Shown: in pieces, positions 1 to 47,912 of the stretch
Numbering within the stretch: the first letter of the stretch is position 1
How the letters are laid out: each line of letters begins with the position of its first letter
Source of the DNA: Paramecium tetraurelia
Taxonomy: Eukaryota
Length of the DNA: 64,000 bases
Direction: 5' to 3'
Assembly (NCBI GenBank): GCA_000165425.1
Contig: CT868025.1
Span: 186,001 to 250,000 of the forward strand
The notes under the pieces: model-generated
Seen by the model: only the letters and a program-made list of their open reading frames with translations
Told to the model about the DNA's origin: nothing
Databases searched by the model: none
Position numbers and translations under genes: made by a program

Positions 1-3000
1 TATTGCTTACCATGCTAAACTGTTTACCCTATCTAATAATATTGCATAGAAAATTTACAATTGAACATTCAAATGTATCAGTCATATCCAAATCATTATC
101 TCAGGTATAAGCAAACCTAAATTAAGTCTGCCACAAAGTTAGTCAATTGTTATTTCCTGTATTTCAATTGGTTTTTTTACTTACCTCAGATGCATTACAT
201 AGGTTGGAATTTTTTAAGTCAGAGTGACCTACTTCTAGTTGTGCTTTCAGTGATAATACTCTGCATTTCTACAGGATCGTTGCTGATTTCCAATATCTAC
301 TTCATCAATTTTGAATTCAATGAGTAGTCACTAAGAAAGCATTTTACCTACTATAATTGTTTCGCACAATTGTTGATTATCCCCATGGCTATTTTGAATC
401 AAAGTGCTGATTCATTGTACTAAATGGCTGGCAGAATATTTCACAGTATTATTCTATTTGTCTTGATTTATGAAGCCTATGTGGAACTACCATTTGGGTA
501 ATTGTAATTGAATAAACTTTAGATTCTCAAAATACTCAACCATCTACAATAGATTATTAATTATGCATATATTACTATTTATTTTCACATCTATTTTGTA
601 TTCAAACCCCGATCAAGCTTATAGTTCATTGGCTTTAATGTTAATCCTTCAACCAGTCTCCTAGTATCTCTTTTAAACATTAATACAACACAAAAGATTA
701 AAGACCTATCATAATACTTTAAATTAATATTACGAATTGTTAGTCATAGAAGATTTCTTTGACTTAATCTAGGCTGCCTAGAAGAGTAAGAAAAGAATTA
801 TCGAGTTTAATCTAGAAATTTAGTTTGCATTTGAATCGCTGTCAGTCACTCAAATGCTAATGCAAGAAGATAGGAGCTGGAGGAGTCTTGAAATGGGAAG
901 ATGCAGTCATTCTAACATCTTGTTTATTTAGAATTGGGTTTGAAAAGCACAGGAATGATTCCAAGAACCTCGAAATTTATAGTCTTAAATTCCTTACATT
1001 CATCAATAAATACAGAAATAATGCTCCAAAGAGTTATTAAGAGTTGAAGATCCTCTTTTAAAAGAAGCGAGAATATTCATTTTATTTCATTTAAATCTCC
1101 CTCTTATTATAGTTCATCTTACAGGCTCAGATGCAAAAGGACGAGGATTATAATATCAACAAGGATACTCGTGTATCTAATGTGAAACTATAAGTAAGCA
1201 AGAGTGAAAGAAGTATTGTATAAACATTATACTAAATGGAGTAAATTAAGTAGAATTTACTCCCCTTATTAATGCAGCTAAGTTAATTTAAGATTCAATT
1301 TTGGAAGCAATATTTGTCTGGTAAATTTTAGAATTTCTCTGAAATCGAAATTGAGGTTAAATAATTGCAACTTTTGAAAAACTAAATCTTAAATCAAATT
1401 AAAATTTATCAACCAATTTTTTATACGCATGGTCGCACATTTAATGTTCAATTCCTTAAATATAGCGCTTTGATTGATTTACTCTTGTTTAACAATGTTA
1501 GGAGATATTTTGAACTAGAAAGAGGTAATACATAATTTATATTGATAGAAAGAAGAGAAATTTTATAATTGGAAAAAAGCATGAATTCTTTTGAAACAAC
1601 CAATATTAACTTTTTTAAAGGGGAAGCCATATCTTTAAAAGTTTGCATTGCTTAAGGTCCAAATATTGGGAAAATTCTAAATGAAGTTATTTCACCTTTG
1701 ATCCCAAGGTTTTTTGGGTTCCATCACTTTGATAATCCATTAGAAGCTTTCCTCGATTTCACTAAAGGAAATATTAACACTCTAATGCCGTCTTGGTTAG
1801 AACCTGTTCATGATGAGATTATGTAAAATTACATTAGAAGAGGAGGCACTGCTAGGATAGGCAAGTACTTTTAAACTTTTGCAAAAATATATGATAAAAC
1901 ATTGATAAGATGTTAAGTCTATCTAGCCCATAATTTTAGTTAAAACTTAAGTGATGATTTTACTATGATTGGTTGTTTGAAATCCTTGGAAGTAGAATAA
2001 CCCAAAATCAAACCTGGGAAAGAGCCAAAGAAAATAAAAGATCTTGCTTTTAAAGGGGCTTAACATATTTTATTTGATGTTAATGGAAACATTTTAGGAA
2101 TAACTTAAGGATTATTTAAAATGATCGATCGTCTATAAAGGACTAAAAGTGCACCACACTTTGAATCTATGAAACATAACAGTCATGAGAAAAGTAAATC
2201 TGAGAACTCTTCATTTGAGAGTGAGAGCTTTGATGTTTACCAATAATAATGGTCAAACTAACTGTTAAAAATAGATGAATTTTATTAAAAAGCGCTAATT
2301 TGGATGTTTTTACCATTCTTATCGAGGGAGGTAGAATCCACTGGAATTGAGTACTTGATGGATGGAGAAACTCCCCCTAAGAATAGATATCCAAATTTAG
2401 TAGATCTGGAAACTAGTAATAGCATTGTAAGCAATAAAGAAACTTATTTATTTATTCCTGAGGATATTAATTTGTTTGTATCTTAGTATGAAAAAGTGTT
2501 ACAAAAAATAATGGATGATGTACGTGTTCAATCAAATAATTTCTCTTCAGGGAGTCAATACAAAGGTATGAAAAGTGACTACTAAGAAAGCGAAAGTTTT
2601 AGTGCTCAACAAAGTGTTACAATATACAATGAAAAATTATGTAGCTTTTTCTTTGATTAACATTTGAAAAGTCATCAAGCCTTGTAATTTGGTACTACTA
2701 GATAATCAGAGATGCAAAAGACTTCAGTAAAACCATCTTCATAGTCATAAGTGTCATTATAAAGTGAAGATAATAGTGAATAACTTAAAACCAGAGCTGA
2801 AAAGGTCTATTAGGATAAGTACACTAAATACATTGAAAAAATATCACTGTAAGATTTCAATCCAGTTCCTGTTTTTTATTCAGTCAATTATGAAGAATAT
2901 AAGTATAAAAAGAATGACATCGAACAAAAATAACAATTTTTTGTAGTTGAACTCGTTATTAATGAATAATAATTATTAAATACTATGGGTTATAAAAGAT

Positions 3001-5339
3001 AGGTAAGGGAAACCATTAAATAAGCTTGTTTAAATTTTTAATCTAAAAGACTCTTGATTGAATAATAAATATAAACAGAAGATTCTAATAGTCTTCAAGG
3101 TAATATCAGTGAATAAAGAAGTGACCATGATGGAGAAATCGTTAATTACATGTTCCCCACTCATCCATCTCATTATTATGAAGATCTATATTTTCACTCT
3201 CCTAACAAGGATTAAGTTCCTAATTAATTTAATTAGAACGATAATAAATATTTATTCAGTAGTCGGAGTGATGAAAATGAACATTAGAATAAACAAAGTG
3301 TAAATACATAGGAATCCATTATGAAAGGATCTTTGCATTTAAAATTCCCAGAAAGAAATTTGGCTTTGAAAACCATGAACAAATTTATGGAAAAAAGAAA
3401 ATAACAAGATTTCTTTAATGAGACTGATTCTAAATTAGCCATCGATAGTAGAGCTTCTTAATAATAAATTCAGGAAGAATATTAGGTCAAATATTCTGAA
3501 AATCTTAAAATATTCGATTAGAATTATAAATCAATACATTCTAAATTGTAAGAATTCAATAATCCTACCTCGTTTAGAATCTAAAAATATCTACTATATT
3601 TTGTGCTTTTTTTGATAATCGGATACATCATCCTATTAACGATAGCAGTATTTCAATAATACAATTTTAATGATTGTTTTGATCTTATTGAATTAATGTT
3701 ATCTACCCAGTAAAGCTATTCATAAATTACTCATGGTCTCTATCATTTAGAATTAGCAGATTAATTTAATCACTTTGATAAAAATTTGAAGGAATTTTAT
3801 TCTTCTCAAATTGATAGTAATCTTTAAAACTTAATTAATTTATAAAGTGAACAATTAATAGATATCAATTAAGTTAATTTTAGTGTGAATTAATTTTATA
3901 ACATTGAATACTTAGCGATTCTTAATCCAACACTATAGGAGACCATTTAGATGAGCTTAGCTTAATTTTATAAAATAAAAAACCACACATCGAATAATTC
4001 ATAAGTTACACTCATTTCAACCGCTAATTTAAAGGAAATTGGATAATTACCTAAATTGGCATATGATAATTGTTATGATGAAAAAGTTTAGAATGAAGAA
4101 CAAGTCCAATCTTTATTAACAATTTATATGTTAATTATTTTTTTTTTGGTGATGTTGCTGTAGTTTTTGTAAGTACCTTTGATATAGAAACTTAAGAATG
4201 ATCATAGAAGATTATACAAAATTGTGATTAGATTGTAGGTGTATGAAGTATAGGATGAAATTGAGACTTACGAGCATATACTTTCAATCTTTAAAAGGTC
4301 ATTATATGAATGGATGTTAATTGATTTTGTATAAGAAACTCGAATGTTCGAAAACAGTATTGATAATATTTAAATGTAAACTCAATAATTAACTGAATAA
4401 AGTTAAAATCTCTTGCTTAATACTAGTAATAAAAAAAATAAGTATAAATTATTAGAGAAATTGAAGAAACGACACATAAATTAGTTTAAGTATATCATAA
4501 TATTAATGATTGGATTAATAGTAATACTTGCTTATTTTTTAATCATCTTCTTTGTAATTTTTATACTATCCCAACAATTATTTGCTAATGCAAACTTTCT
4601 ATTTAAATTTAAATTAATCCAATCCTCTTTTATCAATATCATCAACAATATTGATTTAGTATGCTATAATACATATGATCAATACCGTTTCATAAATTTA
4701 ATGGGTTAAGAGGAGTTTAATAATTATTCATCCTCATTAAAAAGTGATTAATAAGATCAGTACATAGAATTCAACAATAATTTCGCTTCCATTGTGAGTG
4801 ATGAATATTTAAAATACAATTTGCAATAAATAAATGAGAATAATATATGCCTAGATTAGATTGGAATTGCTTGTAATGAAACTTCAGCCTATCTATTCAA
4901 TCCCAATATATTCTCATCTTATTAACATGGAATGAAGTACTTAATCACTTAAATTGATAAACTAATTCAATCCTAACCGCATTTCTTCTACGATAATAAA
5001 AATAACAATACTTTTCAATAAGTACAGGACTTCCTATCAAGTAATGATCACATAATATACATTGATTATGGAAGTGAGGTCTTAACTAAAGCATATGCAT
5101 AATTAGTAGACACTGCACATTAAGAATTTGATTAAGCACTAAAAATTTACAAGCAAACCCTAATGATATTTATATTAAGTGTAGGAATGCTTGGTTTGTT
5201 GATCATTTTAATGTTGGGTAAATTGCTGTTGAATATGCAATAGGATTCCATTCGTACATGCCAATCGTCACTTCTTCTCATTTCTCCTAAAAGATATTTG
5301 AATCAAAATATAGCATAATTAACATAGAAAAAAAGATGA
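1..5339 (+). CDS. Large multi-pass membrane protein with central PAS-like domain (ciliate-expanded family), 5' partial
   Basis: Long code-6 frame with short introns (e.g. ~498-522). N-terminal hydrophobic helices; PAS-like segment ~1640-1990 (IPRFFGF...NINTLMPSWLEPVHDEIMQNYIRRG); further TM helices ~3590-3660, 4120-4170, 4490-4570, 5160-5230; TGA 5337-5339. Confidence 0.75.
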
Positions 5340-38195: not shown

Positions 38196-39217
38196 ATGAT
38201 CATCGAAAATCAAAGATGTTTTGGGAAGGAAATAGCAAATTCAACTTTGCATCAATCCAAGGAGATAGGCATAATCGTGGAAAAACATAAAAAACCTTTC
38301 TCCATAATACCAAAAGTTTTTGCAATGAGTTTGGATGATAAAGAAAATAAACTGTTTAGAAGAGAATCAGAAAAATTCTAAATTGAGATAGAAACCGAAA
38401 AGAGCAAGGATGTTAAAAATCCTTAAAATGTTGAGTTATATTCCAATGAGATCTTACAACACCTACTGATTGAGGAGGTAATATTTTTAGACTATTTAAG
38501 AATAAATATACAATTAACTAGTACATGACACCTGAGTAACAGCCTGATATCAACATAAAAATGAGAGCTATTCTTGTGGATTGGTTAATTGATGTTCATG
38601 CCAAATTCAAGTTGAAGGATGAAACACTCTACATTACAATCTCTTTGATTGATCGATACTTGGCTCTGGCTCAAGTCACAAGAATGAGATTACAGTTAGT
38701 AGGTGTGGCTGCCCTGTTTATAGCTTGTAAGTACGAAGAAATCTACCCTCCTGCTTTGAAGGATTTCGTTTACATAACAGATAATGCGTATGTGAAAAGT
38801 GACGTTTTGGAAATGGAAGGTTTAATGTTATAAGCCTTAAATTTCAATATATGCAATCCCACTGCTTATTAATTCTTACAAAAATACTCAACCAATTTAG
38901 ATCCGAAGGATAAGGCGTTAGCTTAATATATACTGGAATTGGCTTTAGTTGAATATAAATTTATTATATATAAGCCTTCTTAAATTGTCCAATCTGTTAT
39001 ATTTTTAGTTAATAAGATTAGGTAATACTTTTATATTAATCATAGAACACCCACTTATAAAACATCGAACGAGAATCAATTAAAGCCTTGTGCTAAAGAA
39101 TTATGCACATTACTTTAAACAGCAGATCTAAGTTCCCTATAAGCAGTAAGGAAGAAATTCAATGCTTCTAAATTTTTTGAAGTTTCGAGAATTAAAGTAG
39201 AAAAAACAAACAAATGA
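38196..39217 (+). CDS. Mitotic cyclin (A/B type)
   Basis: D-box-like RCFGKEIAN; cyclin box MRAILVDWLIDVH...LQLVGVAALFIACKYEEIYPP; TGA 39215-39217. Confidence 0.95.
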
Positions 39218-39805
39218 TTGTAGTTTTAAATGTCTTGTTTCTTTGACTTTCACTCAAATTTTCAATTTTAGTTTTACAATAATTATAAACAATTATCATA
39301 ACTTTCTAAAATCAAACAAATGAGAAGAAATCTAATGAAAGTAACAAGTATGTTGGAGTTAGGGATTTGTATTATCTTTATAAAATGAAATTAAGAAGAA
39401 TAATCATTAAAGATATATTAAAATGTAATTTTTTAGATTAGTTTATTATATGTTTATTTTATCAGAATTTCAATTGTAATTATAATTTATCATTTTTTAT
39501 AAATCTATATTTAGAGTGATTCCGCAAATAATTAACAGATTCGTTTAAATTTAAGTATTCAAATAAATAATTAACTTCTAAACATTTCTCAAAATTACAC
39601 TCTCTTTTATATATATCTAATAAAGAATCTTCTATAGATTTTATTTGAAAATGCTTCAGTTATTAATTAAATTAATCAATTTTAAGGCATATTATTGTTA
39701 TTTATACAAAAAGCAACATTTATTTAGTTAATTAACAGTGGCAATCTAAATATGGTTATGTGATTAAACAAATAATATTGAATATATTTAATAAAAAGAT
39801 GAATC

Positions 39806-40888
39806 TCATCTTCCTGACCATGATGCAACTTATTTCTTGAATATGATGATGACTTATTCAATGATAGCATTTTCTTCGTCTCTCTTGGCCTTGGCTTCAG
39901 CATAGTCTGCTCTCTTGTTTTCTAAATCGGATTAAGCTTAATCTAAAGCGTCTTATGACTCTTAGAGAATAATCTTTGATTTGGCTTATTAGGCTAAGGC
40001 AGCTTGAATTTACTAAGGAAATAGAGATGATAATAGTTACAGTTGCCAATCTGTCTGCATAAACTTATTTTCTTTCGTATTCAACTTTGAGGTTTGCAAC
40101 TTCAGCTTCGCTCAATGATACCCATCCTGCTAATTCCCATGAGGCATTAATTTCATTGACTTCAAGAGCTTCAAGTGAGGCTTAAAGATTGGCTTCAAGT
40201 GATTCCAATACTGACAACACTTTCTCTGCTAATGTGGCTCCTCTGCTTACAGAACCGTCTTCTTATTTGTTGGCCAATTGGAGGAATGACTTTAATTCTT
40301 ATTCTTAGAATGTGCTACTGTATTGCTTCAACTTGTCAGCAACACTGTGAACTTAGACTAATTCAAAGGAGTCTCCATTGATAATATATCCTGCGACATC
40401 TTATTTGAGGACTCTGACTACTTCGAGTGCTTCTCTGTTTTATTTGATTGATCTAACAAACAATTGATTGCTGAGACACTATTCATCAAGAAGGACTTAA
40501 ATCTCTCTAGCGATTTCATCTTATCTTTGTTCATTCCAAGCGAGGTAATTTTTGGTGTCGTGGAGTTCTTATTCAAATTGTGCTCTGTTCTCAATTGATT
40601 ATTAAAACAATTTTTGGTTGAGATTCTTGATTTTTGTGAATTGTTCAATTGTTCTAAAATTAATCAATAAAATTACTATGCTCCAACCCATTCGTCTGTT
40701 TCATTCTTTTAATCAGCTGCGAATTAGGCATCCTTGTTTGATTAAATCAAATCATTGAGTAATCCAAACACTGTATCAATAGCATCACTTGCCTTTGTTC
40801 CAGTCTAAAGGAGGGCAAGGATTTGATCCTTAGTTGATGTTGCTGATGCGAATGTGACCAACAATACAAGGGCGATTGCCAATTTCAT
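39806..40888 (-). CDS. Trichocyst matrix protein precursor (TMP/Grl family)
   Basis: Signal peptide MKLAIALVLLVTFASA; acidic coiled coils (DTVFGLLNDL; EQCLSNQLFVRSIKQNREALEVV; LEVNEINASWELAGW); one 23-nt intron. Confidence 0.8.
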
Positions 40889-41406
40889 TATTTTATTAAT
40901 ATACGCAGAAAAACGGGTAATTCAATTAAATATCAATCCAAAAATATAAATAATCAGTATAAAATGAATAAAACCTCATGATTACCTAATTTACTAGACT
41001 ATCCTCACATAGTAAGCATAAGTTACTTAAATGAATTATGATACTACTATGTAATAGATGATTCTAAGTAGATAGCAGAATAAGTTGTATGAATTCAATG
41101 GAATAAATTGAATATCCACTAGTAACCCCTCAGGAACCATCAAAAAGAAGTTGATTAATGAAGTTAAAGGGAAGAGTTTGGCAGACTTGGATGAGATGAA
41201 ATGGCGTAGTTGCGAGGAACATAGAGAATCACAGGTTTTTTATGGTAGAAATTAGAATATAAATTAATTTATATATATTTATATTTATATTATATTTAGT
41301 TTATGTTATGAAAAAGGTAATTGGGCATTCAATAAGTTATTTAATATTTTATTCTTTTGGATAATTATAATTATGAATATTATAATATTAATTATAAAAT
41401 ATTAAA

Positions 41407-44046
41407 ATGAATTAAATTCAATAAGAGATCACTATGATTCCTACCAAAACATTTAAGAATGCACTATGGATTTCAAAATCTTTGAGTGTAAACAAACGAA
41501 AAAGTCCCAATTATCCATGTAAAAGATGGGGACATACGGCTGTGTTACACGACAAATATATGTATGTTTTCAGTGGTTGTGGGAAATCTGATAATCCCAG
41601 ATAGTGGGAACAAATATATAGAATGGATTGCGTTACATTTTAATGGGAAAGATTGAATTCGCCATCTTTGAAGCATCCTCCAGGGAGAGATTCTCATTGT
41701 TGTGTATGTTTGTAAAATAAGCTGTATTTTTTTGGGGGATCCAGCAATGAATTAATTCTTGGGGATTTTTGGAGCTTTGATATTGAAACTTCTGAATGGA
41801 CAGAAATTCAGGTACCAAAAGATATGGAGGGTAGAGAGGGACATTCGATGGTGGCTTTATCATCTAGATTGATATACATCTATGGCGGATGGGATCAAGT
41901 GTAAAATATAATGACAGAATCTCATTGGTTATATGATATAAAAACAAACAAGTTTCAATAAGTGACACATTTTACAGGGGACGAGATGATTAAATTAGAG
42001 AGTCACACGGCTAATAAAATAGGGGATAGTGTTTATATCTTTGGAGGGTAAGGTCAGTAGTCGAATAAACAACTAGTATTTCATAAAGATTTGTATAAAT
42101 TAGATTTTGAGAATATGAATGATTTGCATTCAAAATTTGACTAATTGGAGTCTGGAGATGATAAGGGTTAGAATATAGATAATAATACTGTTATCAAGAT
42201 TGAGAAAATCAAGGCAAATGGATCTCAATAGCCAACTCCAAGAGCTTCTCATTCTGCAGTTGCTTATGGAGAGAGATTCTTATTCATCATCGGAGGAGAA
42301 GGGTATGAATGAATAACAGTCAATTTTAGATATTAATACGACTAATAGAAGGACAACGAAGAGGAGGCTATTGAACAGGATTAAGATGATGATTAAAATA
42401 TTGATGAGGAGGAGAAGCCTATATTTCCGAAAAATGATATTTGGATATTTGAAACATTTATGAGAGTATGCAATTTAAGTAAATTTATAGACGTGGAGCA
42501 AATTATAGCCAAAATCTAAAACTCCAGTATTTCAACCGAGATTTTCACATAGTTGTATAGTGTATAAGGATTAGTTTATAATATTTGGAGGGTTGAGAAG
42601 TATGGGAGAAGTGTTGGAAGACATTATGGTATTGCATTTAAAGGATAGTGATAATAATGTACAGAAATACTCAAGGGATGAGATGAAAAACGTTTGTAAG
42701 TATTGCCAATTGATCTATGGTATTCAGTAGGAAGAGGAAATATCATATCATAAAGCAACAGAGAGTAGTGCAGTAAAACTACCTAAGTTATCTTTGACAT
42801 TCGTAGATGAGTAATAATATATTTAATAGTTTACTAGAGTTTCTAAGTTGATTCAGTGTCCTATGTCTTGTTTTGGTCTCTTTTTGGACAACGTAAAATT
42901 ATCAGAAGCTGCTGAAGTCAATTTTGAATATGTGTTCTTATAAAGAAGGAAGAAATATTCAAATACTATTGATGAAATAAGGGATAAGATACCAGTGTTG
43001 ATAATATTTGAGAAAGACCCTAAAGAATTGGATGATTTAAACGATTTCCTATTTAATTTTGACATTTCCAAAAGGAAGAATAAAGTGATCAATTAGGACT
43101 TGGACTTGAAAAATGAAAGTGAACAAAACTAAGTTCTGGAAGAGTAATAACTACTCAATAAGAAGTAATACGCCTTAAATTTTAAAATTGCATCATTGCG
43201 ACTAGGAGATAGTGTGCTCATCTGTCATAAGTCTTAGAACAATTATTATGTTGGGTTGATATCGATGAATAATCAATTGAATCCTAATGATGAAACCTTG
43301 ACCTTCTATAATTACACGATGACTATTGCTAATGGTACTGAGAGGAAGATTGACTCAACTGAGAGCAAATATGTGTTATTAAATGCAATTACTCATTTAA
43401 TTAGTGAGGAGGACTTCATATTGAATTGCAATTTTAATTATACCAAAATCTTCATCTTCGATTTGACTAGGATACATGCTTTATAAAAGATATTTGAACT
43501 TAGTCTATTTAATGACGATATAATCTCGAATCAATCATTGGCATTTGAATTGAAGAAGGACGATGCAAGTAAATTTCCAGATTTCTCTTTGAAGGAGTAT
43601 CTCAAATACTATTCATTGGAACACTTACCATTTAGAGTGACTGTGCAGAATCAATTGATCAATATGAATGTTAATGTGATAAGTCGAATAGAGAATAAGC
43701 ACAAGGTTACTGTGACCAACGAAAAAGTAGTAGCGAAATTAAATGAATGGGCGGAGTCTTATCAATTAGGTAGACTGACCTAAAATAACTTTGGAGTCCT
43801 TCTTTATTATTAAGGGAGACTGATCAATAGGCATAGAAAGTAATTGGGGATCTATCCAGGTGTTCTTGAGCAAAGTGGGTATGTGAACATTTCAAAGATT
43901 GTTAAACCCAATATGACATTTGAAGTAAGTAGTGCAATTTATGTTAGGGATTCAAGAATTCATACTTGGCGTCTATCTTACTATAAACTCTGGAAGCATT
44001 GGAGGAAGAATGCGAGCCAGAGAGAAGAAAGGAAATTAAAATTTGA
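41407..44046 (+). CDS. Kelch-repeat beta-propeller fused to a degenerate MORC-type GHKL + S5 module
   Basis: Kelch blades RWGHTA..YVFSG, RDSHC..YFFGG, REGHSM..YIYGG, LESHTA..YIFGG, RASHSA..FIIGG, RFSHSC..IIFGG. C-terminal half carries MORC-like motifs (CPMSCFGLFLDN, YALNFKIASLRLGDSVLI, VGLIS, TKIFIFDL, DFSLKEYL, GVLLYYQGRLI). Confidence 0.8.
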
Positions 44047-44296: not shown

Positions 44297-46086
<1,790 letters not shown>

Positions 46087-46222: not shown

Positions 46223-47912
46223 TCATCCTTATGTTTTATCACTATTTTACAAGTGTTGATTAAATGATTATTAAGGATAGCAAGCAAGGTGATAATTGTA
46301 TCCTGGAAGATAATTAGGAACTTACTAATAATTATGAGTATTCAAATTTGGTGGAAAATTCAAGACTGACCTTGGATTGACACTTTAAGAGGCTCCTTAA
46401 TACTATGATTAATAATTATTGAATGGGAAAAATGGGAAGTAAGAACCTATACTAGGTTGATTCTCTGGTAAGGATATTTAATTTTATTATTATAAGGGAT
46501 CTTCAAGATTTTAATTTAACAGCATGTTGCTTAGTAGATTATTGTAACTAGGTAGACTAGTATTGCTTAATAGTCCATACAACCCTTAGTTCACTGCAGC
46601 ATCTTTATTCAAATTAGCTAATTGCATTTTTTTGAAGAATTAATTAACTTGTTCTGAGTTGACAAAATAGATTTTATTTTTCTCCTTATTAACCAAGCAA
46701 GTTTAAAGTTAGAGAGACTCTTCTGATGAGATTTAAGTGAAATCCATAATTTATAGTGGCAAGGTATTTTACTATTATTTATTATTTGCATTATCTTATG
46801 GTTTGTTATTGTCGACATTCTCATCACTTTAGCTGTGATTGTCCTTATTTTGAATAAGGATTTCATCATTATTTTTTAATGGTTCTTCTAATTGTTGTGA
46901 CTGCTTTATATGTTTCGGTTAACGAGTTGAAGTAATCTTCTTTGACTGTTAGTCGAAATCCTCTTATTTGACATCATAAGGATCGTCGCCGTCTTGTTTC
47001 ATTCTCCATTCTATTTTTTTGATTATTGCATTAATGCATCTTTGTTCTTCTAAACTCAATTCTTCAACGGAAGGCTCAGATAAAAAAGAATCTTATGCTT
47101 CATTATTGCTCTCTTAATTGGATTGCGTTTAAACTTTATTGTTTTTTTCTTTTCTCATGAGACAATTAAAGCGATTTTTTACATTATTTTCGCTTCTTTA
47201 CAGTTTTAGCTATTTTGAAATTTATGCCCATTTTTTTCCATTTTAAATGGCCAATTTCATAAGCTCCAAATCTTCAGATAATTACCATGGTTTTCTTAAT
47301 ATTAATTATAGAATTACCTATTAATAGTTGGATTTAAATGATTGTTCCATCTTTCCCTGCACTGTTTCCCATTTCGATGGACACTTGAATCCGTTCGTTT
47401 GTTGAGAGCCATGGCTATCTGACTCCATTTGTTGCCTTTATTTAATTTCTAATATTCTTGAATAATTAATAGAAGTGCATCATCTTCTTGTCTGGTCCAT
47501 GGAGCCTACTATAAAGGTAGTCTCAACATTTGCAGCCACTTCTATTTGCAGTGAAAGGGCTCTCTCCGCTGCATCATGGAAGATATGTTGATCCAATCAG
47601 ATTCACTCTATTAATTTCATATGATCATTTCAATACAATCTGTTTAAAATCTCGTTTGTGAAGGGCCAAGTACTTTCCAACCAACCAAATTAACACTTTT
47701 TTGTCGTCGTCAGTCCAGTTCTTCTTGAATTTGCTAGCACCTTACTGGATACTTGCTTGGTTGTTCTTTTGGATGTTCAGAATTTCATAGTTATTCGGAA
47801 ATTATTCTAAGCCAAGATTATACAGCTCTTTCATATACGTGAATCTCACATTGGTAATGTCTTTAACTTTATCGAAAAAATCTTTAAATTTAGTGAAGAA
47901 ATCATCCATCAT
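46223..47912 (-). CDS. Three-repeat Myb transcription factor
   Basis: KKNWTDDDK...; APWTRQEDD...KWSQIA...RNGKQCRERWNNHLNP; KPWQLSED...KKWAQIS...RSENNVKNRF. Confidence 0.92.

What the first reader, a model, noticed from the sequence alone, without database searches (positions are those of the whole stretch)
41407..44046. Kelch-MORC fusion with an apparently dead GHKL ATPase
Seen: six Kelch blades followed by MORC motifs in the correct order. CPMSCFGLFLDNVKLS (~42857-42904) aligns to the N-box WPFSAxAELIDNAxD with the catalytic Glu replaced by Leu. No DxGxG G1 box is present (IIFEKDPKE at the expected place). KQYALNFKIASLRLGDSVLI (~43165-43220) aligns to GxYGNGFKxGSMRLG with the glycines lost. 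S5-like DFSLKEYL and GVLLYYQGRLI follow. Established: MORCs are chromatin-compacting and transposon-silencing ATPases, and apicomplexan MORC also carries Kelch repeats and partners with AP2 factors and HDAC3. Inference: this is an alveolate-type MORC turned pseudo-ATPase scaffold, a candidate for ciliate gene silencing or programmed DNA elimination, and easily annotated as only a Kelch protein.
Basis: partly seen in the sequence, partly recalled or inferred. Interest (0 to 1): 0.75.

Follow-up and report, generated by a model that had tools for sequence, protein, structure and literature searches.

The report
Ciliate Kelch-MORC with dead ATPase
Paramecium carries a gene annotated only as a Kelch protein that is in fact a MORC-type chromatin protein lacking the residues for using ATP, yet it is strongly conserved, so it probably works as a scaffold rather than as an ATP-driven clamp.

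Summary
Confirmed. The gene (41407-44046, +, ciliate code, four introns seen spliced in a run contig) encodes 845 aa identical to Paramecium tetraurelia GSPATT00033249001, 'Kelch motif family protein'. A six-blade Kelch propeller precedes a MORC GHKL-S5 module: a family profile hits only MORC2/3/4 in the PDB below E 0.1 (best 1e-17), and the AlphaFold model matches MORC3 at Z 22.7 over 292 residues (Hsp90 family 11.8 or less). Against MORC2, Glu35, Asp68, Gly70/72, Gly98/101/103 and Lys427 are replaced; Asn39 and Lys105 remain. All four copies in the genome are degenerate, no canonical MORC was found there, and dN/dS on the module is 0.03-0.06. None of 30 non-redundant family members has the catalytic Glu; 14 of 24 non-Paramecium members keep DxGxG. 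So hydrolysis was probably lost family-wide and nucleotide binding later. Best reading: an ATP-independent nuclear scaffold. Orthology to apicomplexan Kelch-MORC was not tested; a role in DNA elimination rests on one weak ISWI1 pull-down row for a paralogue. No ciliate MORC or pseudo-ATPase MORC was found in the papers searched. New variant of a known kind.

The parts
41407..44046 (+). Whole CDS, 5 exons (41407-42302, 42330-42465, 42491-42810, 42838-43924, 43948-44046), 845 aa, code 6
   Evidence: Spliced translation is identical over 845 of 845 residues to P0055 = GSPATT00033249001; poly(A) reads on the + strand in 3 of 3 raw-read runs
42303..42329 (+). Intron 1 (27 nt)
   Evidence: 27 nt left out at 42302 in the contig of run X5; GT..AG
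42466..42490 (+). Intron 2 (25 nt)
42811..42837 (+). Intron 3 (27 nt, in frame, no stop), just before the N-box; missed by a straight ORF reading
   Evidence: Left out in the X5 contig; intron at the same site in all three paralogues
43925..43947 (+). Intron 4 (23 nt), right after the S5 lysine-finger position
41494..42643 (+). Six-bladed Kelch beta-propeller (about aa 30-395, my boundaries), the most conserved part
   Evidence: Pfam Kelch families; Foldseek top hits KLHDC3, LZTR1, KLHDC2/10 for the homologue's model; dN/dS 0.008 against the closest paralogue
42695..42706 (+). CxxC (CKYC, aa 413-416) in the linker; possible metal-binding half-site (inference)
   Evidence: 20 of 20 Paramecium proteins; also in P0016, P0018 and P0023, absent from the 8 other homologues checked
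42785..43555 (+). Degenerate MORC-type GHKL domain (about aa 443-690, my boundaries)
42878..42892 (+). Motif I: Leu465 in place of the catalytic Glu (MORC2 E35); Asn469 kept (N39)
43013..43027 (+). Motif II / G1 box lost: KDPKE in place of DxGxG
   Evidence: 20 of 20 Paramecium proteins lack DxGxG
43163..43186 (+). Motif III / G2 box: Lys560, Ala563, Asn565 in place of Gly98/101/103; Lys567 kept (K105); predicted as part of a continuous helix (aa 546-573)
43556..43998 (+). S5 (transducer) domain with the MORC signature GVLLYYQGRLI (43793-43825) and Phe812 (43919-43921) in place of the gamma-phosphate lysine

Best explanation
A MORC-derived pseudo-ATPase that works as an ATP-independent nuclear scaffold. 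Shown: a Kelch propeller fused to a full MORC GHKL-S5 fold, expressed, spliced and under strong purifying selection, with 8 of the 10 scored active-site residues replaced and no CW finger or C-terminal coiled coil. Inferred: (a) it cannot hydrolyse ATP (about 0.9), and in Paramecium probably cannot bind it either (about 0.8), since the adenine-binding Asp and the lid glycines are gone and the phosphate loop is predicted as helix; (b) it therefore does not cycle through the ATP-gated open/closed clamp of MORC2 and offers a fixed surface instead; (c) the propeller, the most conserved part, binds a conserved partner, and the MORC module docks on chromatin or a chromatin enzyme, linking a targeting factor to a remodeller or deacetylase as apicomplexan Kelch-MORC does with AP2 factors, HDAC and ISWI (about 0.5). 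A specific role in programmed DNA elimination is possible but about 0.15.
For: Fold: profile A2 against the PDB gives 9 hits at E under 0.1, all MORC2/3/4 (best 1.1e-17). AF2 model (pLDDT 76, pTM 0.79, ciliate-type alignment only): the first listed Foldseek rows are all MORC2/3/4 (best E 4.7e-14, next family 3.2e-6); VIA Z 22.7 over 292 aa to MORC3, 22.1 to MORC2, 15.2 to SMCHD1, 11.8 or less to Hsp90, MutL and topoisomerases. Residue roles from PMC5811534 passages. Losses shared by all 20 annotated Paramecium proteins for the N-box, G1 and S5 lysine. No Glu in 30 of 30 non-redundant members. dN/dS 0.034 and 0.056 on the module in the two close pairs. Bipartite NLS-like tails in 6 of 11 non-Paramecium homologues checked. 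The paralogue pair was seen in both ISWI1 pull-downs and neither control. Plasmodium and Toxoplasma Kelch-MORCs act in HDAC/AP2 complexes and PfMORC associates with ISWI.
Against: No localisation, partner or phenotype data for this gene. The ISWI1 row has 2 peptides, 1 spectrum per replicate and q 0.0099, in a cross-linked pull-down of about 1,500 proteins with 598 'only-in' flags, 22 of the first 30 of them ISWI1-only; the window's own gene and its closest paralogue are not in the stored, cut file. The Paramecium protein has only a short basic tail and no clear bipartite NLS. Asn39 (30 of 30) and Lys105 (29 of 30; 1 truncated) are kept, which a purely structural role does not obviously require. 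Without ATP-driven dimerisation or a coiled coil, the known MORC mechanism (dimerisation is needed for silencing) cannot simply carry over.
Confidence: 0.52

Rival explanations
1. A non-hydrolysing nucleotide or phosphate sensor: the module still binds Mg-nucleotide or a phosphorylated ligand through the kept Asn and Lys, and binding switches its conformation or dimer state. This fits the non-Paramecium members best.
For: Asn39 in 30 of 30 and Lys105 in 29 of 30 members; 14 of 24 non-Paramecium members keep full DxGxG, and 13 of the 14 with that region keep the S5 lysine; two such homologues pass the Pfam HATPase_c_3 cut-off.
Against: In Paramecium the adenine-binding Asp, the G1 glycines and the S5 lysine are gone in 20 of 20 proteins; the G1-to-G2 span is 50 residues against 29-31 in canonical MORCs, and G2 is predicted as helix.
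Confidence: 0.17
2. A non-chromatin Kelch adaptor (for example a KLHDC/LZTR1-like substrate receptor or a cytoplasmic scaffold) in which the MORC fold has been co-opted as a generic interaction domain.
For: The propeller is the most constrained part (98% identical, dN/dS 0.008), and its closest structures are KLHDC3, LZTR1 and KLHDC2/10 substrate receptors. No CW finger or coiled coil follows the S5 domain. Pfam AP2 and ELM2 models found nothing in the genome, but the controls did not ring either.
Against: No BTB or other adaptor domain in the Pfam scan; the MORCs described in the passages read are nuclear; NLS-like tails in homologues; a paralogue was seen in a nuclear remodeller's pull-down.
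Confidence: 0.2
3. A specific factor of programmed DNA elimination, recruited with ISWI1 to developing-macronucleus chromatin.
For: Paralogue pair detected only in ISWI1 pull-downs from developing cells; PfMORC-PfISWI association reported; MORCs silence transposons (established knowledge).
Against: The hit is at the detection limit among hundreds of ISWI1-only proteins. All four duplicates are retained and transcripts are low and even in three poly(A) runs of unknown stage, which reads more like a housekeeping complex subunit (inference). No expression time course could be retrieved.
Confidence: 0.1
4. A still-active, divergent ATPase that uses other residues, or a decaying relic.
For: The fold is complete and Asn39 and Lys105 are kept.
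Against: The general base, adenine anchor, lid glycines and lysine finger are lost together. Decay is excluded by dN/dS 0.03-0.06, intact frames in 4 of 4 copies and spliced transcripts.
Confidence: 0.04

Closest known systems
Animal MORC2/3/4 and plant/algal MORCs (GHKL-S5 ATPases)
   Same: Whole GHKL+S5 module aligns (Z 22.7, 292 residues to MORC3); MORC-specific SxRLG and S5 GhXhh.XXRhl motifs; Asn39 and Lys105 equivalents kept.
   Different: No catalytic Glu, G1 box, G2 glycines or S5 lysine; lid about 20 residues longer; no CW zinc finger and no C-terminal coiled coil; N-terminal Kelch propeller.
Apicomplexan Kelch-MORC (PfMORC PF3D7_1468100, TgMORC)
   Same: Kelch repeats combined with a MORC-type GHKL domain (passages of PMC6693557 and bioRxiv 2023.09.11.557196 and .557253).
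   Different: [quoted passage not shown] This protein has six blades, no CW finger and a degenerate site. Orthology and the state of the apicomplexan active site were not tested here.
SMCHD1 ATPase module
   Same: Related GHKL-S5 chromatin ATPase fold (Z 15.2).
   Different: Clearly weaker match than MORC; no SMC hinge; SMCHD1 is an active ATPase.
KLHDC2/3/10 and LZTR1 Kelch substrate receptors
   Same: Same six-bladed propeller type (Foldseek E 2e-21 to 1e-16).
   Different: No BTB domain found in the Pfam scan; fused to a MORC module.

Membership tests
MORC family | N-terminal GHKL domain followed by an S5 domain, closer to MORC than to other GHKL families | tested here: met
MORC family | S5 signature GhXhhpXXRhl (Iyer 2008) | tested here: met
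   GVLLYYQGRLI fits at every position except the polar one (Tyr); homologues such as P0009, P0015, P0016, P0018, P0046 and L062 fit fully
MORC family (active ATPase) | Motif I catalytic Glu (MORC2 E35) | tested here: not met
   Leu465; Glu in 0 of 30 family members
MORC family (active ATPase) | Motif I Mg-binding Asn (N39) and motif III Lys (K105) | tested here: met
   Asn469, Lys567
MORC family (active ATPase) | Motif II DxGxG (D68, G70, G72) | tested here: not met
   KDPKE; absent in 20 of 20 Paramecium proteins
MORC family (active ATPase) | G2 glycines (G98, G101, G103) and S5 lysine finger (K427) | tested here: not met
   Lys560, Ala563, Asn565; Phe812
MORC family (canonical animal/plant type) | C-terminal coiled coil and/or CW finger | tested here: not met
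   The protein ends about 30 residues after the lysine-finger position; no CW family in Pfam; model of P0003
MORC family | ATP binding, hydrolysis and ATP-gated dimerisation | not testable with these tools
Apicomplexan Kelch-MORC | Kelch repeats fused to a MORC GHKL domain | tested here: met
   architecture of apicomplexan MORC
Apicomplexan Kelch-MORC | Phylogenetic grouping with PfMORC/TgMORC | not testable with these tools
   no apicomplexan MORC sequence was returned or 66
Apicomplexan Kelch-MORC | AP2, ELM2 and HDAC partners | tested here: inconclusive
   PF00847 and PF01448 found no match in the genome but their controls did not ring; HDAC and partner binding not tested

The most novel reading that the evidence does not exclude
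Ciliates have a single MORC lineage, a Kelch-MORC shared with apicomplexans, which lost ATP hydrolysis at the base of the sampled family and ATP binding in Paramecium. It now acts as an ATP-independent partner of ISWI1 on developing-macronucleus chromatin and is needed for transposon silencing or DNA elimination. That would be a natural MORC whose silencing works without the ATPase cycle.
Probability: 0.12. Interest if true: 0.87.

Novelty: new variant of a known kind. Interest (0 to 1): 0.62.

Why it matters
The papers read treat MORCs as active ATPases whose silencing needs ATP-gated dimerisation, and list no ciliate member. This is a conserved, expressed MORC-fold protein in a model ciliate that lacks the catalytic machinery, with no active counterpart found in its genome. 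Its relatives form a natural series from 'probably binds ATP but cannot hydrolyse it' to 'probably cannot bind it'. It makes testable which MORC functions need the ATPase cycle. It suggests the Kelch-MORC architecture is not parasite-specific, and asks whether the essential Plasmodium and Toxoplasma MORCs are themselves active enzymes. It also gives Paramecium chromatin researchers four hidden candidate genes now labelled 'Kelch motif family' or 'uncharacterized'.

Tried and rejected
Single-sequence Pfam and PDB searches of the C-terminal half: no MORC or GHKL hit; nor for homologue P0009 alone against the PDB.

Search for a canonical MORC in the own genome: PF17942 found nothing, but its control did not ring; PF13589 gave 24 matches that read as MLH1, PMS-like, Hsp90-family and histidine-kinase domains, none scoring with the family profile; an algal MORC module and the L062 module found nothing. 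The L062 query also missed the four known copies, so sensitivity is limited and the result is 'not found with these queries'.

Tetrahymena radial-spoke TtKelch (TTHERM_00760390) as an orthologue: rejected, it is 427 aa, Kelch only. P0022 (insect repeat protein) was dropped as a chance hit. Fragments P0006, P0008, P0010, P0014, P0017, P0019-P0021 and P0049-P0054, and loci L041, L055, L060 and L061, were not in the motif count because my N-box pattern did not extract them; L041's N-box reads GVLLDN-type, also without Glu.

Repeated independent loss of the G1 Asp: not shown; one clade is not rejected (p-AU 0.099; L045, which has Asn there, was wrongly grouped as Asp-bearing in that test). The position of L062 next to canonical MORCs is a meeting of long branches.

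No RNA holder was listed on record. Expression time course: gene IDs not found in the held supplements of PMC3091696, PMC5485702 or PMC13092971. The ESM Atlas was used with homologue P0012 only: HATPase_c_3 and Morc6_S5 clusters, no apicomplexan cluster shown. Earlier findings of the scan: nothing in 3 look-ups. Homodimer prediction: tool not available, no result.

Full report
Gene and organism. The window is AT-rich and reads as ciliate DNA under code 6. The gene starts at 41407 and ends at 44046 on the + strand. Three introns follow from the frames. A fourth, stopless and in frame (42811-42837), was revealed by introns at the same site in the three paralogues. All four (27, 25, 27 and 23 nt) are left out in a contig of run X5, whose RNA status is a guess by the tool. 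Three poly(A) raw-read runs from one study cover the gene on the + strand at low, even depth (mean about 1-11 per bin); their stage is unknown. The spliced product is 845 aa and identical at 845 of 845 residues to P0055, the P. tetraurelia record GSPATT00033249001, named 'Kelch motif family protein' in UniRef. The genome holds 4 copies, two close pairs at 84% and 59% identity over the C-terminal query.

All motifs are at the stated coordinates. Single-sequence searches see only Kelch. A search of 1.84 billion representatives returned 18 proteins at E up to 0.001; one, P0022, is an unrelated insect repeat protein. Five of them are full Kelch+module proteins of 791-989 aa, two of which pass the HATPase_c_3 cut-off. 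A profile of 11 Kelch-poor family sequences hits 9 PDB sequences at E under 0.1, all MORC2, 3 or 4 (best 1.1e-17, MORC3 residues 11-330). One homologue (L062) hits MORC3/4 on its own (E 1e-8). AlphaFold2 on window 42839-43924 with 26 family sequences and no canonical MORC gave pLDDT 76 and pTM 0.79. Foldseek lists MORC2/3/4 first (E 4.7e-14; Hsp90 family from 3.2e-6). VIA-align over 48,161 chains gives Z 22.7 (rmsd 3.7, 292 aligned) to MORC3, 22.1 to MORC2, 15.2 to SMCHD1 and 11.8 or less to Hsp90, MutL and topoisomerases. Profile-profile comparison with three canonical MORCs gives 99.2% for the family and 90.0% for Paramecium alone, with Hsp90, MLH1 and 120 decoys far below. The full-length model of the P. 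primaurelia homologue matches six-bladed KLHDC and LZTR1 propellers.

The active site. Passages of PMC5811534 assign Glu35 as general base, Asn39 to Mg, Asp68 to adenine, Gly70/72 and Gly98/101/103 to the lid ends, Lys105 to the alpha-phosphate and Lys427 (S5) to the gamma-phosphate, and show that ATP binding drives the dimerisation needed for silencing. Mapped through canonical MORCs P0043-P0045, the window protein has Leu465, Asn469, KDPKE, Lys560/Ala563/Asn565, Lys567 and Phe812. So 8 of these 10 positions are replaced and Asn39 and Lys105 remain. All 20 annotated Paramecium proteins from five species share the PMSCFGLFLDN N-box, lack DxGxG and lack the S5 lysine. The span between G1 and G2 is 50 residues, against 29 and 31 in two canonical MORCs. 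The model draws one helix (aa 546-573, pLDDT 70-89) through the G2 box. The domain is not decaying: dN/dS on the module is 0.034 (window against its closest paralogue) and 0.056 (second pair), and 0.008 and 0.045 on the propeller (NG86-type estimate, dS up to 1.9).

The wider family. A metagenome scan added 27 loci. Of 30 members non-redundant at 90% (6 Paramecium, 24 others), 0 have the catalytic Glu (27 Leu, 1 Ile, 1 Met, 1 Asn), 30 keep Asn39, 29 keep Lys105 (1 truncated), and 0 keep Gly98 or Gly103. 14 of the 24 non-Paramecium members keep full DxGxG, and 13 of the 14 with that region sequenced keep the S5 lysine. The simplest reading is loss of hydrolysis in the family's ancestor and further loss of nucleotide binding in Paramecium and some others. 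Whether the G1 loss happened more than once is open (p-AU 0.099). The lineages of the metagenome members are not named. L058 and L060 read through TAA/TAG. L062 begins with CCCCAAT repeats, the telomere given for the rumen ciliate Entodinium (passage of PMC6211341). Most others are open under the standard code. A ciliate-wide range is therefore an inference. No Tetrahymena, Oxytricha or apicomplexan sequence was returned by any search, which may reflect word-based sensitivity.

No active partner found. PF13589 finds 24 places in the genome, all reading as MLH1, PMS-like, Hsp90-family or histidine-kinase domains. A canonical algal MORC module finds nothing, and a DxGxG-keeping homologue finds only the same four degenerate copies. 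These searches have limited reach (one search missed even the known copies), but they give no sign of an active MORC for this protein to regulate.

How it most likely works. Shown: an expressed, constrained Kelch-MORC fusion without the catalytic residues, CW finger or coiled coil. Inferred: it cannot run the ATP-gated clamp cycle and serves as a fixed platform, the propeller binding a conserved partner and the MORC module contacting chromatin or a chromatin enzyme. Apicomplexan MORCs combine Kelch repeats with a GHKL domain and act as scaffolds for AP2 factors, HDACs and ISWI (passages of PMC6693557 and bioRxiv 2023.09.11.557196 and .557253). In support of a nuclear role, 6 of 11 non-Paramecium homologues checked end in bipartite NLS-like sequences. 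Also, the second paralogue pair appears in Dataset EV1 of PMC9670198 with 2 peptides in both ISWI1 pull-downs and none in the controls. That row is weak: one spectrum per replicate, q 0.0099, a cross-linked sample of about 1,500 proteins, 598 'only-in' flags, 22 of the first 30 of them ISWI1-only; the window's gene is absent from the stored, cut file. AP2 and ELM2 searches were uninformative. I put the nuclear-scaffold reading at about 0.5, a non-chromatin adaptor at 0.2, a nucleotide or phosphate sensor at 0.17, a specific DNA-elimination factor at 0.1 and an active enzyme at under 0.05.

What is known. Iyer et al. 2008 (PMC2292703; parts 1-2 of 4 and passages read; supplement held nearly empty) describe MORCs as active ATPases present in crown-group eukaryotes, apicomplexans and heteroloboseans, with no occurrence of ciliate, Tetrahymena, Paramecium or Kelch in the text. 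Library searches for MORC+Kelch+ciliate (5 papers), MORC+Paramecium (6), MORC+Tetrahymena+ATPase (4), microrchidia+ciliates (2), MORC with pseudo-enzyme terms (16) and Paramecium+kelch+autogamy+mass spectrometry (0) showed no title or abstract on a ciliate MORC or a natural pseudo-ATPase MORC. I saw most of these only as listings; the Tiamat preprint passages do not mention ciliates. Farhat et al. 2020 was not held. Subscription papers on protist chromatin proteins (recalled, not seen) and unseen supplements could mention it.

Verdict. The protein belongs to the MORC family by fold and signature but fails the active-ATPase criteria, so it is best filed as a new pseudo-ATPase variant of MORC. 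Orthology to apicomplexan MORC and any role in silencing or DNA elimination remain untested. Interest 0.62.

Noticed in passing
PMC9670198 Dataset EV1; paralogues L006/L007 (G000:C669 and C491): The second paralogue pair (GSPATP00022044001/GSPATP00017773001) is flagged as found only in ISWI1 pull-downs, with 2 peptides; weak but testable.
   Followed up: partly
window 42811-42837: Stopless in-frame 27-nt intron; retention would add 9 residues just before the N-box. The paralogues have a 24-nt intron with a stop or 28-nt frameshifting introns at the same site.
   Followed up: yes
L062:1-24 and 2753-4162: Kelch-MORC on a contig starting with CCCCAAT repeats (Entodinium-type telomere); the most MORC-like member, with Asn at the catalytic Glu position and intact DxGxG and S5 lysine.
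   Followed up: partly
L036, L043, L045, L046, L047, L059: Six divergent Kelch-MORC copies share one contig-name prefix, suggesting a family expansion in a standard-code organism or several related organisms.
   Followed up: no
window 41112-41252 (+): Short GC-richer open stretch (47 codons) between the upstream gene and the Kelch-MORC, with no Pfam match and no RNA depth; possibly a gene remnant.
   Followed up: partly
window 39800-40887 (-), 38474-39217 (+), 44310-46086 (+), 46223-47479 (-): Neighbours: a secreted protein resembling trichocyst matrix proteins (recalled; no Pfam match), also upstream of paralogue L005; a cyclin; a protein kinase (WNK-like from recalled motifs); a Myb-domain protein. 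No link to the finding seen.
   Followed up: partly
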